A stretch of 64,000 nucleotides of DNA from Squalus acanthias (lineage: Eukaryota): NCBI GenBank assembly GCA_030390025.1, contig CM059443.1, positions 23,312,001-23,376,000 on the forward strand, in the 5' to 3' direction. A program made the translations under genes and the position numbers. This document shows, one piece after another, positions 5,701 through 20,162 of the stretch. How positions within the stretch are numbered: the first letter of the stretch is position 1; each line of letters begins with the position of its first letter. Below the pieces are notes generated by a model that was not told where the DNA came from, ran no database searches, and worked only from the letters and a program-made list of their open reading frames with translations.

Positions 5701-7150
5701 ACAGTCAGCAGAACTGAAGAATAAGTTTCCTCCCCCCCTCCCCCCACTTTATAGGTTTTATATTTACTTAACATGCTGGATAATGTTTTAAAAAAAGATA
5801 TATGGGATCCTGTGTGCTGCACTGCAATAAATACAGGGCATGTGAATCAGCTCCACCTGGAGACAGACAGCACAGCTCTTTGCTGGCCTAAAAACATTTA
5901 AGTCACCCTCAGTTACATATTCTAATCATTTTATTATACTTACAAAAATGCTTGGCATTGGTCTTACTGCTGTTTGGTTAGTGAATACAATTACATTAAA
6001 AAAATTACTGCAATTTCTTTGCTTCAGACCTTTAAAAACAGCTTTTTAAATAATTTGATAAAAGAAAAAACCATGTAGCTTCAAGCACAATCCAATGTTG
6101 AATTTTTTTAAACCAGAAAGTTGAACTTTTGTAAGGATATTAAAAAGCTTGATGTACTTTTTAAAACTGCATTAGTAAAGATGTCCCACCTTGAATGTAT
6201 AAAACTTTGTGAAAAAGAAATTTTTTAAATACATTTTTAAAATGACCTACAGTCTTATGAAATCCCACTGCATTTTAAATTTTAGTCTTCCTTTTCACAT
6301 TTTGCTCTCTTGGGTTGTTTATACATAATACATATTTCTTGAACAAAATGTGTAGGTAAAATTTACACTTCATTGTATACTAAGTTTACCAGAAAACTAA
6401 TGTGCTATTGCTTACAATTAAAATTACACACAGCAATAATTCAAATGTATAATAAATCTTTATCTAATGGTATTAGATTACATTGTTTTCAACGGCAATT
6501 TACAATGCTATAAAACACCATTAAATTAATGAAAAAAGGACAGTGATGACAGTATTTGTGTTATCATGAACTACCACTTAACATACAAAAAGACCAGAGA
6601 CAATCGGAGGAAGAGAAGAGCAGGATCGTACTTGTATAAAATAAACTGAAGGCGGCTGAGCAACATTTGCATCAAGTACCAAACTGTTAACAAGTGATGC
6701 AAAATATTACAAGGATATCACCTGTTGCTGAGCAACTCGTCTCAGCTAACAATTCAGTTTTCAACCTTTCAGAATAATAAGCACCAGGGATCAGAACCCA
6801 CAGAGGCACAGTTCGTGATGGTTAAAATAGCACCAACAGCAGGCTAACAAATGAATGCTGGTGTGCGCTGCACTTCACACTTCAAGCCTCTATAGGCTTG
6901 CTGGAACAATGACTAGTCCCAATCACTTGGAAAAAAGATAAATAGTTTCTAAAACACCATACAACAGGAGCCAATTTTTTTGCAGCAACACTAAAACCAA
7001 TTCACAGTAGAATGTATTTGCTTTTATTTTCCAGTAGTAAAGAAGCAAAACAATGTTTGCAGGCCACTCAAGCACCTTTTGTTTGATGGAAGTGGATGAA
7101 GTTGGTCCACATTGTCCTTGCATAGGTCACATTGTTTTGAGGTAGAATTC
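2730..7150 (-). other. DOT1L: Putative long DOT1L 3' UTR
   Basis: AT-rich, no recognisable TE over ~4.4 kb, unlike the introns; ends near a minus-strand AATAAA. Confidence 0.6.
2751..2756 (-). promoter_or_regulatory. Candidate distal polyadenylation signal
   Basis: Plus-strand TTTATT = AATAAA on minus, followed by GU/U-rich sequence (gttgtgtattattg); repeats resume shortly beyond. Other TTTATT hexamers exist more proximally. Confidence 0.5.
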
Positions 7151-7158
7151 CTAATTAC
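7151..7158 (-). CDS. DOT1L: DOT1L short-isoform terminal exon, coding part (..G-N-stop)
   Basis: Strong polypyrimidine tract ctttttcccttctatctctag|GT AAT TAG. Joined to exon 27 (phase 1) it gives ...GGTAGGN*, like the canonical human end GGTVGGN. Confidence 0.88.
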
Positions 7159-7813
7159 CTAGAGATAGAAGGGAAAAAGTACATTATCTATCTTCCGTTA
7201 GTAACTGCAACATATTTCAGATTTAAAAACTAATAATTCCCCATTCACCTTTAAGCATCAATGACAGCAACTCTATTCAACAGTTTGATACAGATTATCA
7301 ACTATTAAGTTTGGAGATTCACACACCCCAGGCTTAAATTTAATACTAGCTGAACAGCAAAATGTTAATGAATTTTTCATTTTAATGAGCAAACTTCCAC
7401 TTAAGGCATCAGTATCACAATAAAGATAGGTCTTCAACCGATCATATGAAACCCAAATGACTAGTCAGACTGTAATACTGAATTTTAAAATACCATGACA
7501 ATTAATATAAAGCCAGGACATTATTGTTGCAACTTAGTCTTGAAAAGCAGTTCTTTTTATTGATGGAGATATCTGTATCTGCATTTCTGTTTTAAGCACA
7601 TGCACACACTATACCAAGAAAAACAGACCATTCCTAAACCATAAATGAGACATTCTAGATGTCTTAATTTTACAAAATTGTCCAAGTTTTTACACTGCTA
7701 GAGTTTGCATTTCATCAAGATATCACAAACATAGCTGTACACATTGATAAATTGTGTTAACCTTGCACATTTTTCTAACCTTACCTTATAAGACTGATAA
7801 AGTACGCAAGTTC

Positions 7814-8400
7814 TTATCGAGGCTTAACCCCAGAGAAATGTGTAGCATAAGGAGGCTGCATGCCAAGTGTGACCCACATTGCAGATGTATTTGTGCTGGA
7901 CTGAGGAATGGGAGGTGCTGACTGAGCAAGCGCTGAGCGTGGCAAAGGTGGGTGATGCACTGTGAAGGAAGGGTGAGAAGCTTTGGGCTGCAAAGATGCA
8001 AGCTTCATGGCTAATGCAGTGTTAGCAGATTGAAGCGAAGCAGTTGAAGAGGAGCAAGAAATGGATGACGGCAAGTATCCATCGCTAACAGAGGACATAT
8101 TCCGGAAAAGGGAAGGATCAGAACTGTTTGAATTTAACAGTGGAGGGGGAGGTGGTAAGGAAATATTGGGGGGAGGTGTGTTAAGCACAGACTGCATTGG
8201 TGCTCGGGTAAGGTAAGGGGCCACTCTGCTCTCAGTGGAAGATAATGTACTGGAAGAGATAGAAATAAATGAATGGGAAGTAGTAGGAACAGACTGTAGT
8301 GGGTTAAAGCTTAACATCGTGCTACTAGATACTGGAACATTGCTGAAATTGGCTCCAAACTGATGAGAAGAGACTGAAGGCACCACATGGTTAAAAATAC
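7814..8400 (-). CDS. DOT1L: DOT1L long-isoform C-terminal coding exon (exon continues as UTR to a donor at 7785)
   Basis: cag|GTATTTTTAAC; (G)IFNHVVPSVSSHQFG...PSFTVHHPPLPRSALAQ...WVTLGMQPPYATHFSGVKPR*. Matches my recollection of the long human DOT1L isoform ending SGVKPR. Confidence 0.9.
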
Positions 8401-9397: not shown

Positions 9398-11260
9398 GAT
9401 TAATTAAGAGGGGGAAAATAGAGTATGAGAGTAAGCTTGCAGGGAACATAAAAACTGAATGTAAAAGCTTCTATAGATATGTGAAGAGAAAAAGATTGGT
9501 GAAGTCAAGCGTAGGTCCCTTGCAGTCAGAATCAGGGGAATTTATAATGGGGAACAAAGAAATGGCAGACCAATTAAATACATACTTTGGTTCTGTCTTC
9601 ACAAAGGAGGACACAAAAACTCCCAGAGATGTCGGGGAACATAGGGTCTAATGAGAGGGAGAAACTGAATGAAATCAGTATTTGTAGGGAAATGGTGTTA
9701 GGGAAATTGACAGGATTGAAGCCTGATAAATCCCCAGGGCCTGATAATCTACATCCTAGGGTACTTAAGTGGCCCTAGAAATAGTAGATGCATTGCTGGT
9801 CATCTTCCAAAACTCTATAGACTCGAACAGTTCCCATGGATTGGAGGGTAGCTAATGTAACCCCACTATTTAAAAAAGGTGGTAGAGAGAAAACAGGGAA
9901 TTATAGCCTGACATCGGTAGTGAGGAAAATGCTAGAGTCCATTATAAAAGATGTAATAGCAGAGCACTTGAAAAACAGTGACAGGATCGGACAAAGTCAA
10001 CATGGATTTACAAAAGGTAAATCATGCTTGACTAATCACTGGAATTTTTTGAGGATGTAACTGGTAGAATAGATAAGGGAGAACCAGTGGATGTGGTGTA
10101 TTTGGACTTTCAGAAGGCTTCGATAAGGTCCCGCATAAGAGATTAGCGTGCGAAGTTAAAGCACATGGGATTGGGGGTAAGGTACTGACTTGGATAGAAA
10201 ACTGGTTGGCAGACAGGAAGCAAAGAGTTGGAATAAACAGGTCTTTTTCCGAGTGGCAGGCAGTGACTAGTGGGGTACCGCAGGGATTGGTGCTAGGACC
10301 CCAGTTATTCACAATATATATTAATGGTCTAGACGAGGGAACTAGATGTAATATCTCCAAGTTTGCAGACGACAAAGCTGGGTGGGCGTGTGTGCTGTGA
10401 GGAGGATGCAGAGAAACTCCAGTATGATTTGGACAGGTTGGGTGATTGGGCAGATGCAGTATAATGTGGATAAATGCGAGGTTATCCACTTTGGTGGCAA
10501 AAACAGGAAGGCAGATTATCTGAATGGCAATAGGTTGGGAAAAGGGGAAGTGCAACGAGACCTGGGTGTCCTTGTGCACCAGTCGCTGAAGGTAAGCATG
10601 CAGGTGCAGCAGGCAGTTAAGAAGGCAAATGGTATGTTGGCCTTCATAGCGAGAGGATTAGTGTCTTGCTGCAGTTGTACAGGGCCTTGGTGAGACCACA
10701 CCTTGAGTATTGTGTGCAGTTTTGGTCGCCTTATCTGAGGAAGGATGTTCTTGCCATGGAGGGAGTGCAGCAAAGATTCACCAGACTGATACCTGGGATG
10801 GCAGGAATGACGCATGGAGAGATTGGGTCGATTGGGCTTGTATTCGCTAGAGTTTAGAAGAATGAGAGGGGATCTCATTGAAACTTATAAAATTCTAACA
10901 GGACTAGACAGACTAGATGCAGGAAGGATGTTCCTGATGGCGGGGGAGTCCAGAACCAGGGGTCACAGTCTAAAGATAAGGGGTAAGCCATTTTAAGACT
11001 GAGATGAGGAGGAATTTCTTCACCCAGAGAGTGGTGAACCTGTGGAATTCTCTACCACAGACGACAGTTGAGTCCAATTCATTAAATATATTCAGGAAGG
11101 AGTTAGATATATTTCTTAAGGCTAAGGGGATCAAGGGATATGGGGAGAAAGCAGGGACAGGGTACTGAATTTGGATGATCAGCCATGATCGCATTGAATG
11201 GTGGAGCAGGCTCGAGGGGCCGAATGGCCTACTCCTGCTCCTATCTTCTATGTTTCTATG
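9398..11260 (+). mobile_element. 5'-truncated CR1 LINE (ORF2 RT + 3' UTR)
   Basis: KSPGPDNLHPRVLK, DWRVANVTPLFKKG, QHGFTKGKSCLTN, GVPQGLVLGP, KFADD, LVRPHLEYCVQFWSP; frameshifted; ttctatgtttctatg tail. Confidence 0.93.
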
Positions 11261-14200
11261 AACACAAAAAGGTGGAGTTCAAATTCAGCACTGTTCATAA
11301 AAAGCAGAAATAATGTCAACACAACCACCTAAAGCAAAAGCCATCACTTGCAAGCAGCTGATGTAGAATTAAGCTGTAAATATAAATAATCTCCGGGTTT
11401 CATTATACCCTTTTTTCATCCAATCCACCCCTTTAATTCTTCTATGGACTTCCACATGGTCAACTGAATAACCTAAGAGACAACTAAATAGTATATGGAA
11501 TTCGGTTCGATTTTACTATTGTAATACCATTTAGAACACATTATTGCAATTCAAAGTAAGCGATTTTATGAAGCGCCTTGAAATATTTTGACATAATAAA
11601 GTGTGAAATAACTAAGTGTTCACAATTTCACATTTTAGGTAGGATTGAACTCACTGGAATGCACAAGATGTTGGAAAATGATTCAGGACTGAACCACAAT
11701 GAGATAAGAGTGGTTTAAGTTTTTTTTTAAAAAAAGAGTTACACCACAGCCAGGCAAACATCCTGGGTGTTGAGACAAATGTGGTAGCTCTTCCCTTACA
11801 CAAGGAACCTCAGACACAGTTGTAGATGAAAAGCCATGTGGAAGTATGTGTCTTGCATCAATGGCAGCCAGCTGGTCTCCTGAGCAGAGACTATTTTGAA
11901 CTATTTTAAGTGCATTCAACCAATTCTCGCAAATACAAGTTGGAATTGTGAGTTTCAGAATCAGAAAGTAGTGGAAATGAAATCCTGATCAGAGAGTATA
12001 TCCACTTTTAAGATCACATAATGGTGTCCACTGTATAGGCAGAATCTTTCATGGAACTTGGGTGAATTGAACAGATAATGCAATGAACCCCAACAGAAAT
12101 TTTCCCCATCCCCAGAATCAAAGGTATTCCATTAACCCACACAGCATTATGTCAATCCTTTATCCTGCATCTTTTGAATTTGCAGAGGGTGGGATAGGCA
12201 GAGTGGTGGCTTGGAACAGCAGCAGAGACAAGTTTTTTCCCCCCTTCTCCTCCATTTCTGGTTCACTACTACCAAAATTGGGTTCTTTCACACCTAAGAA
12301 GACAGTCCAAGAATGATCTTTATAGTCGAGCTCGACAGACAAACCTTCCAATTCCCATTTCAAGGGACCATAATGCAGAAGTCAAAGAAGGATGCAACAC
12401 TAGAAATGGCTTTACCCCTCCTTTTCCCCCAATTTGAATGAAGGTCCTTTCAGGCAGCAACATCAATAGCAATTGGGAAAATATTTTGCAGGAAAGAGAG
12501 TAGGCTAAGAATGGAAGAACCTCTAGACTCAACTCTAGAACTCAAAAGATCCCAATACCTAAAACACCAATAGTAATGGTTGGTGTCAATGAAAAATAAA
12601 CTGTAGCAAAGGGTATTGATGTGATTCACTTGGTAGAGGTCAAGTTTGTATCACTCAATAAAGTTTGATTTGCAACTGGGCAGCACTGATGCCAATAGTG
12701 ACTGCTGTTGACACTCAGTACTCAAAACAATGACTGCTCCCAACTCTCAGCATCAATCAGTGCCAAAAAAGATAGAATTTTGACACCACTGTTGGTTGCA
12801 GTGCTCAAAACTACCTCTGCGAGGGGCTGCTGATGCCAGAGGTGGAACTGCAATGCTGGACAAACATTTGATGCCCAGTAGATCTTGAAAGGCCAGAATT
12901 AGTGGAATGAGGTAGTGGAGGACATAACTAGTATAAATTTCTTGTGCTGTTTTCTTGAGCACTGCTCTTGGAGGATGGCCTCCCCAGCATGGTCAAGAAA
13001 AAACACGAATTTCATGTCATCTGCAGTCATGCTTTTGAGGGTCAATAGTGTAGACGTGTGTCATGTCCATCAACACTTTCTATAGAATGTGATGACTGAG
13101 CCTATCACTTGTACTTGACGTAGAACACGAAAACCAATGCAAAGATTTCATGACATCAAACTGCTCTTTTTTTCAGTTGCAAGATCTAGCAACGAATTGA
13201 GCTGCTTCTATTCAACTGCAGAAGAAGCTGAAGGTACATCCAATAACCCAGTAAGATGAGATTGGCATAAAAAAGAGGGACAAGGCAAGTCAGGCGCAGG
13301 ACCTCTACAGTGGCAGTGCAACCCAATATAATATTTAATTTGGTAGATCATCCATGCTCAGAATGGGTAGTTCATAGCAGTATCTATCAAGAGGGCATGG
13401 GGGAAATGTATTTTTTCTTAGGTTTGGGGTGCACTTTGAATTGTTTGGGTTTTTTAATTACGTATTTGATCTGCTGAGCAGAGTGCAAGTGTGATCAAGG
13501 TTATTGAGATGGGAATTACAGATTACTTTTCAAGCAATATGGAGGATGTGGATGGAGAAAGATTCTTGAAGTTGGGACTGTTTGGGAACAGAATGAAATG
13601 TGGGACTCAAAAAACATGAAATTATATTCTGACATTCCTTGGTCCCACCCCATCAGTTTTTGGACTTGTGGTTAGTGGGTTCGGGTCCTTGTATCATTCC
13701 TGTCGCTAGTCCTGGTCCAACTCAGACCATTAATTCCACCACCACCTTAGTGAGTTTTTGAAGTGACCCTTGGGCAACTTCTTGCTTGTAGTTGTGGCTA
13801 AAAGTTAGTGACAACCCCTGCCTTATCTAATAGTAGTGGAAAGAAAAAGATGAACTTTGAAGATGACAGAATTAGAAACCACCTGTTCCACGGATCTGTA
13901 GGTCATTGAATTGCATTCACCATTTCCTACACTGAATTGCTGACCTTAAGTGAACTATCAAGAAGTCGTGAAGAATGAGTGCAGGGAGGGGAAACAAACA
14001 AATCATTCAGGTTTCTTTTGCACAACTCCAAACAGCCAGCTCCAAAACCTAGGAATAAATCTGCGTGGTGCAGGGAAACTCAAGAGAAGAGTTAAAACAC
14101 TTCAAGCTATTTACTGGAAGCCTAAGAAATCTTTCTTTATACTGACTGTGCAGAAATCTACAAGAGTATACAGCTTGCCTAGCTTAATTGGTAGAGGGCT

Positions 14201-19166: not shown

Positions 19167-20162
19167 CTCCTGCAGTCCCACCAGCAATACCAGTAATGGA
19201 GAAACTAGTAACAGTGCAAGAATTAGTCAACCCAGCTCCAGCAGCTGTAACGGGAACCATGTTTGCAGTAACTGGTGTCGATCCAAAGAAAGACTGCAAT
19301 ACAGTTGGCCCCATCATGGAGTTTGAGTTGCCCTGCAATGATGTGGATCCCATAGGGTACTGTGATCCTGTGGTAAGCTGGCCAGGAATAGAACCTGCAA
19401 CAGAATGGTGCGATTGTGACTGAATTGAACATAGTGTATGGTTAGCGGTGGGGTGGCGGCTGTCTGAAACAGCAGCTGGCATGTTTTTACCACCCAGTAT
19501 TCCTCCCAACTGGACTGTGGTCACTGGAATAAAGAGATTTTCCCACTCTTTCTCACGTGATTTGTTCATCTTTACAATATGTAACATTGCATTTTTCTCC
19601 ATATGGCCTCCCAAGCAACTTACTACCTCTGCATTTTCTTTACCTTTGACCCCTGACTTGCTCAGCTCATCTCCCTTTGCACCAGTCAACCCATCTGGCT
19701 GCTTCTTGTTTGAAGAGAGATTTGAGTCAATACTGGAGTCAGTTTTGTTCCTGGACAGCTGGTACAGTGCACTGGAATTCAGCCCCACCATCTCTGAAGT
19801 CTTACGAGCTAAACAAGCACCTTCATTATAATTATGTAAACTGATATCTGCAGATCGTCCAGAATTGTAATTGAAAGTGATGGGTGAGGCTGCATGATGA
19901 CCATTTTCCTCCACTGAGACTGGGGTAGTGATGTGTTTCCTCTGATGGGACCCCATTTTAGCATCATTGACTGAAAGGTCACCTGTAATAGGCCTGGTAC
20001 CAAAAGGAGAGGCTTGGCATAAACCAGAAGCTGACTGGGATGAGTGGTCAGAGTTCTTGGTCAAACTGATATCAGATATTGGAGAGAAAGTGGATTTCCA
20101 TTTACTGCTGTTATCCGTACTACTGGAACTGAGTCCTTGCTTCCGCATTGGTAAACTTCCAC
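19167..20162 (-). CDS. DOT1L: DOT1L exon (~exon 27)
   Basis: 996 nt; GSLPMRKQ...NSSKWKSTFSPISDI...VLQSFF...GIAGGTAG; tag/gtgggt. Confidence 0.94.

What the first reader, a model, noticed from the sequence alone, without database searches (positions are those of the whole stretch)
7138..8400. Splice switch between two DOT1L C-termini also moves a let-7 8mer out of the ribosome shadow
Seen: exon 27 (phase 1) can splice to 8400 (adds ~195 aa ending SGVKPR*) or to 7158 (adds G-N-stop). A near-consensus donor AAG|GTAAGG lies at 7785, 29 nt after the long-form stop, so 7785-8400 looks like a 616-nt cassette exon that splices onto the short-form exon. A let-7 8mer (CTACCTCA on minus, 7138-7145) begins 5 nt after the short-form stop but 42 nt after the long-form stop. 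Established: miRNA sites within ~15 nt of a stop work poorly, and stops <50-55 nt before the last junction escape NMD. Inference: exon inclusion gives an NMD-immune, let-7-sensitive long DOT1L, while skipping gives a let-7-resistant short DOT1L. I recall the same TAG-GATTTCTACCTCA context in human, which would make this an ancient jawed-vertebrate arrangement.
Basis: partly seen in the sequence, partly recalled or inferred. Interest (0 to 1): 0.7.

Follow-up and report, generated by a model that had tools for sequence, protein, structure and literature searches.

The report
DOT1L splice switch exposes let-7 site
In sharks, the gene for the chromatin enzyme DOT1L includes or skips one exon near its end, giving a long or a short protein; a let-7 microRNA seed match shared with humans sits 42 bases after the long form's stop but only 5 after the short form's, so let-7 likely dampens mainly the long form.

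Summary
All coordinates are exact. The window is the 3' end of a shark DOT1L gene. Contigs of public runs show the 7785>7158 splice in 7 of 8 runs laid, covering 6 of 6 organisms and 6 studies, so 8400-7785 is a real 616-nt cassette exon. One correction: the upstream donor seen in the runs is 19644, inside exon 27, not 19167. All donors are phase 1, so the stop-to-site geometry is unchanged. Both C-termini are already annotated in sharks, birds, an alligator and marsupials. A published human DOT1L primer matches 7160-7139 at 20 of 22 bases, with the same stop, 5-nt gap and seed match. That confirms the recalled shark-human conservation. It is the only let-7 seed match in the 4.3-kb UTR. Not shown: any let-7 effect, a difference between isoforms, NMD escape, or the human cassette donor. 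My paper searches found no report of the coupling, and the scan's notes held none. Verdict: real, ancient arrangement; isoform-biased let-7 control is likely (0.55) but untested and probably modest.

The parts
19167..20162 (-). DOT1L exon 27 (numbered by homology), full length, with phase-1 donors at 19983, 19644 and 19167
   Evidence: Translation and alignment; donor 19644 seen in run contigs; 19983 and 19167 only through protein models of other cartilaginous fish
19395..19643 (-). In-frame exitron (249 nt) inside exon 27: donor 19644, acceptor 19394
   Evidence: P0223 reads SGVK|GSIPG; CAG|G at 19397-19394; not among the joints shown
7785..8400 (-). 616-nt cassette exon encoding the long Ser/Pro-rich C-terminus (G + 194 aa, ...SGVKPR)
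   Evidence: Joints 19644>8400 and 7785>7158, and one 8,434-nt contig spanning both; 188 protein hits; no Pfam family above cut-off
7814..7816 (-). Long-form stop codon TAA
7785..7813 (-). 29-nt spacer between long stop and cassette donor (inside the 50-nt NMD boundary)
   Evidence: no gaps in 4 of 4 further organisms
7779..7787 (-). Cassette donor AAG|GTAAGG
   Evidence: used in 7 of 8 runs laid
7159..7784 (-). 626-nt last intron; spliced out, also seen unspliced
   Evidence: Joint; unspliced contigs in X1, X4, X5, X6, X9, X10 (retained intron or pre-mRNA)
7151..7158 (-). Start of last exon: G-N-TAG, the short-form end
   Evidence: skip joint 19644>7158 in X1, X4, X6; 11 of 59 cartilaginous-fish models end GN
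7138..7145 (-). let-7 8mer seed match CTACCTCA, the only let-7 6mer-or-better match in the 3' UTR
   Evidence: identical in 4 of 4 further organisms; 7 of 7 bases shared with the human primer; 10 let-7 loci in own genome
7102..7108 (-). miR-133 7mer-m8 seed match, outside the 15-nt zone in both isoforms
   Evidence: Seed taken from own-genome miR-133 hairpins
6828..6835 (-). miR-29 8mer seed match, outside the zone in both isoforms
   Evidence: motif as printed in PMC3763458
2850..7150 (-). Shared 3' UTR, about 4.3 kb; AATAAA at 2873 is the likely end

Best explanation
A 616-nt cassette exon in shark DOT1L is either included, ending the protein at ...SGVKPR, or skipped, ending it at ...GN, and both mRNAs keep the same last exon with a let-7 seed match shared with humans, which likely represses mainly the included form because it lies 42 nt after that stop but only 5 nt after the other, where the terminating ribosome would displace Argonaute. 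SHOWN: both junction types, the stop positions, conservation of site and gap. FROM ESTABLISHED RULES: sites in the first 15 nt of a 3' UTR lie in the ribosome's path; stops under 50 nt before the last junction escape NMD. INFERRED: long-form mRNA is stable and let-7-sensitive, short-form mRNA much less so, so let-7 level would shift the long:short ratio after splicing. A single site in a 4.3-kb UTR would be expected to give a modest effect.
For: Junctions: 7785>7158 in 7 of 8 runs, 6 of 6 organisms; skip 19644>7158 in 3 of 4 runs where it could be seen. The long tail is conserved from sharks to marsupials: 188 hits, all 120 listed end VKPR, 65 of 229 columns invariant over 12 sequences. The human primer matches 20 of 22 bases; both mismatches lie outside the seed match (one synonymous, one in the gap), while its partner primer (199-bp product) has no match within 3 mismatches. 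A review table lists human DOT1L as a let-7c target in miRSearch 3.0 and starBase 2.0 (PMC6883330, passage). The 15-nt ribosome path is stated in PMC4532895 (passages); ribosomes entering 3' UTRs de-repress AGO2 targets (PMC7433747, one section). A conserved site is hard to explain if only the 5-nt geometry existed; the cassette supplies an mRNA in which it can work (inference). Predicted accessibility is at the 71st percentile of the UTR in the included form and the 52nd-70th in skip forms. In rhesus embryos DOT1L 'exon 28' is a regulated event in an analysis of skipped-exon events (PMC12940521, section 2.4).
Against: No let-7 perturbation, reporter or CLIP data were examined. Among sharks the whole 171-nt UTR start is 98-100% identical, so the site does not stand out there. 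Human evidence is one 22-nt primer that stops before the A1 base; the gap is also 4 of 5 identical, so selection may act on the block rather than the seed. The human cassette donor and its distance from the stop were not seen; the rhesus paper gives no coordinates and its supplement has no DOT1L row. No placental-mammal or teleost protein was among the listed hits (lists capped at 120). 3' pairing to let-7 is poor and equal in included and 19644-skip forms, and the site can pair with the AG|GUA junction just upstream. Contig depths cannot measure isoform levels or NMD.
Confidence: 0.55

Rival explanations
1. The conserved block after the acceptor is kept for another job (a splicing or RNA-binding-protein element, or a hairpin that masks the 5' splice site regenerated at AG|GUA), and let-7 has a negligible effect on either isoform.
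For: The whole 22-nt block is conserved with human, not only the seed. The site folds with the junction AGGUA in 3 of 5 isoform models. Both acceptors read AG|GTA, as in recursive-splicing exons (PMC6224609, abstract and passages). One site, long ORF and long UTR predict weak repression.
Against: Both human mismatches avoid the seed match; the match is a full 8mer in sharks; database listings name DOT1L as a let-7c target. The hairpin is weak (-3.5 to -7.3 kcal/mol) and the junction is inside a last exon.
Confidence: 0.22
2. let-7 uses the site in both isoforms about equally; the ribosome shadow is leaky, so the splice only swaps the protein tail.
For: The 15-nt rule is a statistical trend. 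AGO1 has a reported let-7a site 10 nt after its stop that is bound (PMC6694283, passages). Duplex energies do not differ between included and 19644-skip forms.
Against: The seed match starts 6 nt after the stop, at the edge of the 6 nt a terminating ribosome covers, and the 3' half of let-7 would overlap the stop itself. In the AGO1 case let-7a did not change total protein.
Confidence: 0.15
3. As claimed for AGO1x, let-7 bound just after the short-form stop promotes readthrough, giving a third C-terminus.
For: Precedent of a let-7a site 10 nt after a stop; the 5-nt gap is kept between shark and human.
Against: Readthrough would add only 7 residues after the recoded stop before TGA. The AGO1 claim is disputed (PMC12264181, abstract). 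One shark model changes the last residue (G-I-stop).
Confidence: 0.04
4. The included form is held down by the junction behind its stop (NMD or EJC-linked translational repression, as for N-Bak), and that, not let-7, is the main control.
For: The stop precedes a junction; N-Bak shows translational repression in such a context (PMC3763458, passages).
Against: An EJC 20-24 nt before the junction would sit about 6-10 nt after the stop, within ribosome reach. Included-form contigs are well represented in 7 of 8 runs. The tail is under protein-level constraint.
Confidence: 0.04

Closest known systems
Annotated long (...SGVKPR) and short (...GGN) DOT1L isoforms in RefSeq/UniRef
   Same: Same two protein ends: of 189 proteins fetched, 137 end VKPR and 26 end GN; all four donor positions occur with both ends among 59 cartilaginous-fish models.
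   Different: The annotation says nothing about the shared last exon, the let-7 site or isoform-specific control; none of my searches found a functional study of the long tail.
Isoform-specific miRNA targeting by alternative polyadenylation, alternative last exons or 3' UTR splicing (general knowledge; PMC4532895 passages)
   Same: RNA processing sets which isoform a miRNA can repress.
   Different: Here the site stays in both mRNAs; what moves is the stop codon, across the 15-nt ribosome zone.
N-Bak neuronal cassette exon (PMC3763458, passages)
   Same: Included exon brings an earlier stop in the second-last exon, a stable mRNA, and miRNA sites in the shared UTR.
   Different: N-Bak protein is not detected and its sites are not reported as shadowed in the other form; the DOT1L exon adds a conserved 195-aa tail.
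AGO1 let-7a site 10 nt after the stop (AGO1x; PMC6694283 passages, disputed per PMC12264181 abstract)
   Same: A let-7 site right behind a stop codon that does not lower the protein.
   Different: No alternative stop by splicing in AGO1; in DOT1L the readthrough frame is only 7 codons.
Recursive-splicing (RS) exons (PMC6224609, abstract and passages)
   Same: Acceptor 8400 regenerates AAG|GTATTT, so skipping could proceed by re-splicing.
   Different: MaxEntScan was not available and no intermediate was looked for; U1 pairing of the regenerated donor is the weakest of 7 tested.

Membership tests
DOT1L (KMT4) gene | DOT1 methyltransferase domain on the same protein | tested here: met
   P0003 and P0120 hit PF08123 at E 5e-81 and 4e-83; shark DOT1L proteins map exon by exon on the window. 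The domain itself lies mostly beyond the window's end.
Cassette exon | Both inclusion junctions occur in RNA | tested here: met
   19644>8400 and 7785>7158 in X4, X5, X6, on one contig in each
Cassette exon | Skip junction between the same flanking exons occurs | tested here: met
   19644>7158 in X1, X4, X6
Cassette exon | Same cassette structure in mammals | tested here: inconclusive
   Both ends in marsupial models; rhesus 'exon 28' event without coordinates; human donor not seen
Canonical conserved let-7 target site | Perfect match to let-7 positions 2-8 plus A1 | tested here: met
   7145-7138 against let-7 matures from own genome
Canonical conserved let-7 target site | Conserved in distant vertebrates | tested here: met
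   7 of 7 bases in a human primer, A1 not covered; 4 of 4 further organisms. Only one non-shark point.
Canonical conserved let-7 target site | Conservation above flanking background | tested here: inconclusive
   Flanks nearly as conserved in sharks; human block 20 of 22, partner primer no match
Canonical conserved let-7 target site | More than 15 nt after the stop | tested here: inconclusive
   Met in the long form (42 nt), not met in the short form (5 nt): this split is the finding
Canonical conserved let-7 target site | Seed-dependent repression or AGO binding | not testable with these tools
   Only a database listing in a review
NMD-escaping stop in penultimate exon | Stop under 50-55 nt before the last junction | tested here: met
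NMD-escaping stop in penultimate exon | Insensitive to UPF1 loss | not testable with these tools
   No such data reachable
RS-exon | Regenerated 5' splice site with MaxEnt score of 5.52 or more, and re-splicing intermediates | not tested
   No MaxEntScan on hand; only AG|GTA identity and a U1 pairing estimate

The most novel reading that the evidence does not exclude
Jawed vertebrates have kept, since the shark-human split, a switch in which one splice choice in DOT1L sets both the protein's C-terminal tail and its let-7 sensitivity by moving the stop codon relative to a fixed let-7 site. The LIN28/let-7 axis would then tune the ratio of two DOT1L proteins in development, reprogramming and MLL leukaemia, and 'stop relocation' would be a general, overlooked layer of isoform-specific miRNA control.
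Probability: 0.3. Interest if true: 0.75.

Novelty: new variant of a known kind. Interest (0 to 1): 0.55.

Why it matters
DOT1L is the H3K79 methyltransferase and a leukaemia drug target; its inhibition reinforces NANOG/LIN28-aided reprogramming (PMC6918770, search listing). If only the long form answers to let-7, gene-level miRNA studies and 3' UTR reporters would misjudge the link: a qPCR amplicon in the shared last exon, like the one in PMC11417011, cannot tell the forms apart. It also gives a natural, deeply conserved test case for the ribosome-shadow rule, and points to a conserved 195-aa tail with no Pfam family. The claim can be tested with existing let-7 and LIN28 RNA-seq read at isoform level.

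Tried and rejected
19167 as the working exon 27 donor in these samples: not among the 15 of 18 joints shown; contigs drop rare forms, so this is not absence. Isoform ratios from contig depth: not used, since depth is one flat figure per contig. No run was on record as RNA; status rests on GT-AG joints. Extended 3' pairing or better duplex energy in the included form: not found. Readthrough: only 7 codons. A second copy of the locus: 1 match in own genome. Pfam for the tail: one hit below cut-off. Literature on the coupling: searches gave no paper on DOT1L C-terminal isoforms with let-7; I judged from listings and read passages of 12 papers. Grimson 2007, Gu 2009 and Zhang 2004 (mouse Dot1 isoforms) are not held and are recalled only. 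Human cassette coordinates in supplements: none found (files cut when stored; unreadable), so unseen supplements may bear on the human exon structure. Zebrafish dot1l primers were uninformative. Earlier scan notes: nothing relevant.

Full report
WHAT THE LOCUS IS. The minus strand carries the 3' part of DOT1L from a cartilaginous fish (genome 3.7 Gb). The 194-aa frame at 8398-7817 found 188 proteins among 4,681 candidates. The best are shark and ray DOT1L isoforms at 83-95% identity, then crocodilians, turtle, birds, coelacanth and opossum at 52-60% (120 listed, all ending VKPR). Shark proteins map exon by exon on the window. The region is single-copy.

OBSERVATION. Every coordinate given is exact: long stop 7816-7814, donor 7785 (29 nt later), acceptor 7158 with G-N-TAG, let-7 8mer 7145-7138 at 5 nt from the short stop and 42 nt from the long stop after splicing. 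The genome holds 10 let-7 loci above Rfam's cut-off, whose matures pair with the site. The 8mer is the only let-7 6mer-or-better match in the 4.3-kb UTR; 0.04 are expected by chance there, but 5 occur on the window's minus strand, so the sequence alone is weak evidence.

SPLICING. I laid 8 of 24 listed runs (all contigs, none on record as RNA). In one search (organisms A and B, 2 studies) the joint 7785>7158 appears in X4, X5 and X6, not X1. One 8,434-nt contig of X5 runs 20162>19644>8400..7785>7158>5500. The skip joint 19644>7158 appears in X1, X4 and X6. In one search (organisms C-F, 4 studies) 7785>7158 appears in 4 of 4, with no gaps between stop and donor and an identical let-7 site, while intron contigs differ by about 5% plus indels. 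X14 and X18 have 1 and 2 unlisted differences somewhere in 7781-7900. Unspliced contigs of intron 7159-7784 occur in 6 of 8 runs; they may be pre-mRNA. With retention the site would lie 668 nt after the long stop, still outside the ribosome zone.

CORRECTION. The donor used is 19644 (SGVK|G), 477 nt inside exon 27; 19167 is not among the 15 of 18 joints shown. Among 59 cartilaginous-fish protein models (clusters listed only in part), 41 end long, 11 end GN and 7 otherwise. Of the 52 long or short models, 24 use the 19644 donor, 12 the 19983 donor, 8 the 19167 donor, 4 skip exon 27 and 4 carry another small exon. An in-frame exitron 19643-19395 explains forms that reach 19167. All are phase 1, so the 5-versus-42 geometry holds for each.

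CONSERVATION BEYOND SHARKS. Both ends are annotated in birds, an alligator and marsupials (137 long, 26 GN, 26 other of 189). Table 1 of PMC11417011 (passage) prints a human DOT1L forward primer that matches 7160-7139 with 2 mismatches in 22, none in 100 shuffles: same AG, same G-N-TAG, same 5-nt gap, same 7-base seed match. Its partner primer has no match within 3 mismatches. A review table lists human DOT1L as a let-7c target in miRSearch 3.0 and starBase 2.0 (PMC6883330, passage). A rhesus study reports DOT1L 'exon 28' as a regulated event during genome activation, in an analysis of skipped-exon events (PMC12940521, section 2.4); it gives no coordinates. The human donor after the long stop was not seen.

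MECHANISM. Shown: two mRNA classes share one last exon and stop at different distances from one conserved seed match. Established: the ribosome's path includes the first 15 nt of the 3' UTR (PMC4532895, passages, citing Grimson 2007, which I could not read); unrecycled ribosomes in 3' UTRs de-repress AGO2 targets (PMC7433747, abstract and one section); NMD targets are defined by a stop more than 50 nt before a junction (10.1101/2020.07.01.183327, search listing). Inferred: the included form escapes NMD and is the let-7-sensitive one. A seed match kept since the shark-human split makes little sense 5 nt behind a stop unless another isoform exposes it, and the cassette does. Predicted accessibility fits mildly (71st percentile included; 55th, 52nd and 70th for skip forms). 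Against: no added 3' pairing, a weak hairpin with the junction, flanks as conserved as the site in sharks, and no functional data. miR-133 (7108-7102) and miR-29 (6835-6828) matches lie outside the zone in both forms, and both miRNAs are predicted for rat Dot1l (PMC11900980, passages), so the short form is not free of miRNA control.

RIVALS. Non-miRNA constraint with negligible let-7 effect (0.22); equal repression of both forms (0.15); AGO1x-like readthrough (0.04; 7 codons only, and the precedent is disputed); junction-linked repression of the long form as in N-Bak (0.04). Both acceptors read AG|GTA, so skipping could also go by re-splicing as in RS-exons (PMC6224609); untested.

NOVELTY. 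The isoforms and the let-7 prediction are each on record. Their coupling through stop position was not found in searches (open-licence papers and preprints only), nor in the scan's notes. It works like isoform-specific miRNA targeting, but by moving the stop rather than the site: a new variant of a known kind. Interest 0.55; most novel reading 0.3 likely, 0.75 if true.

Noticed in passing
window 20162-19167 (-): Exon 27 has three in-frame donors (19983, 19644, 19167) and a 249-nt exitron (19643-19395). With exon 27 skipping and two acceptors this gives at least 8 annotated C-terminal combinations in cartilaginous fish; birds use another internal donor (GGLLN|G).
   Followed up: partly
window 8400 and 7158 (-): Both acceptors read AG|GTA and regenerate a donor-like site after splicing, as in recursive-splicing exons; the let-7 match is complementary to that regenerated site.
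   Followed up: partly
window 12541-12476 (-): Intronic stretch similar (73% over 22 aa) to an alternative last exon in a basking-shark DOT1L model (P0228).
   Followed up: no
P0226; bird proteins P0127 and others: One shark short-form model ends G-I-stop instead of G-N-stop (stop position apparently kept, residue changed). 14 of 189 proteins, all birds, have a third C-terminus ending LTLPLQG.
   Followed up: no
window 7108-7102 and 6835-6828 (-): miR-133 7mer-m8 and miR-29 8mer seed matches in the shared 3' UTR; both miRNAs are predicted for rat Dot1l.
   Followed up: partly
window about 9400-11300: High-copy repeat in the last long intron (LINE-like by its open frames; label from recall); thousands of contigs lay on it.
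   Followed up: no
window 8398-7817 (-): The long tail is Ser/Pro-rich but keeps invariant blocks (FNH.VPS, SLPPPPPLL, PSFTVHH, WVT.G, SGVKPR) from sharks to marsupials, with no Pfam family above cut-off; possible short linear motifs.
   Followed up: partly
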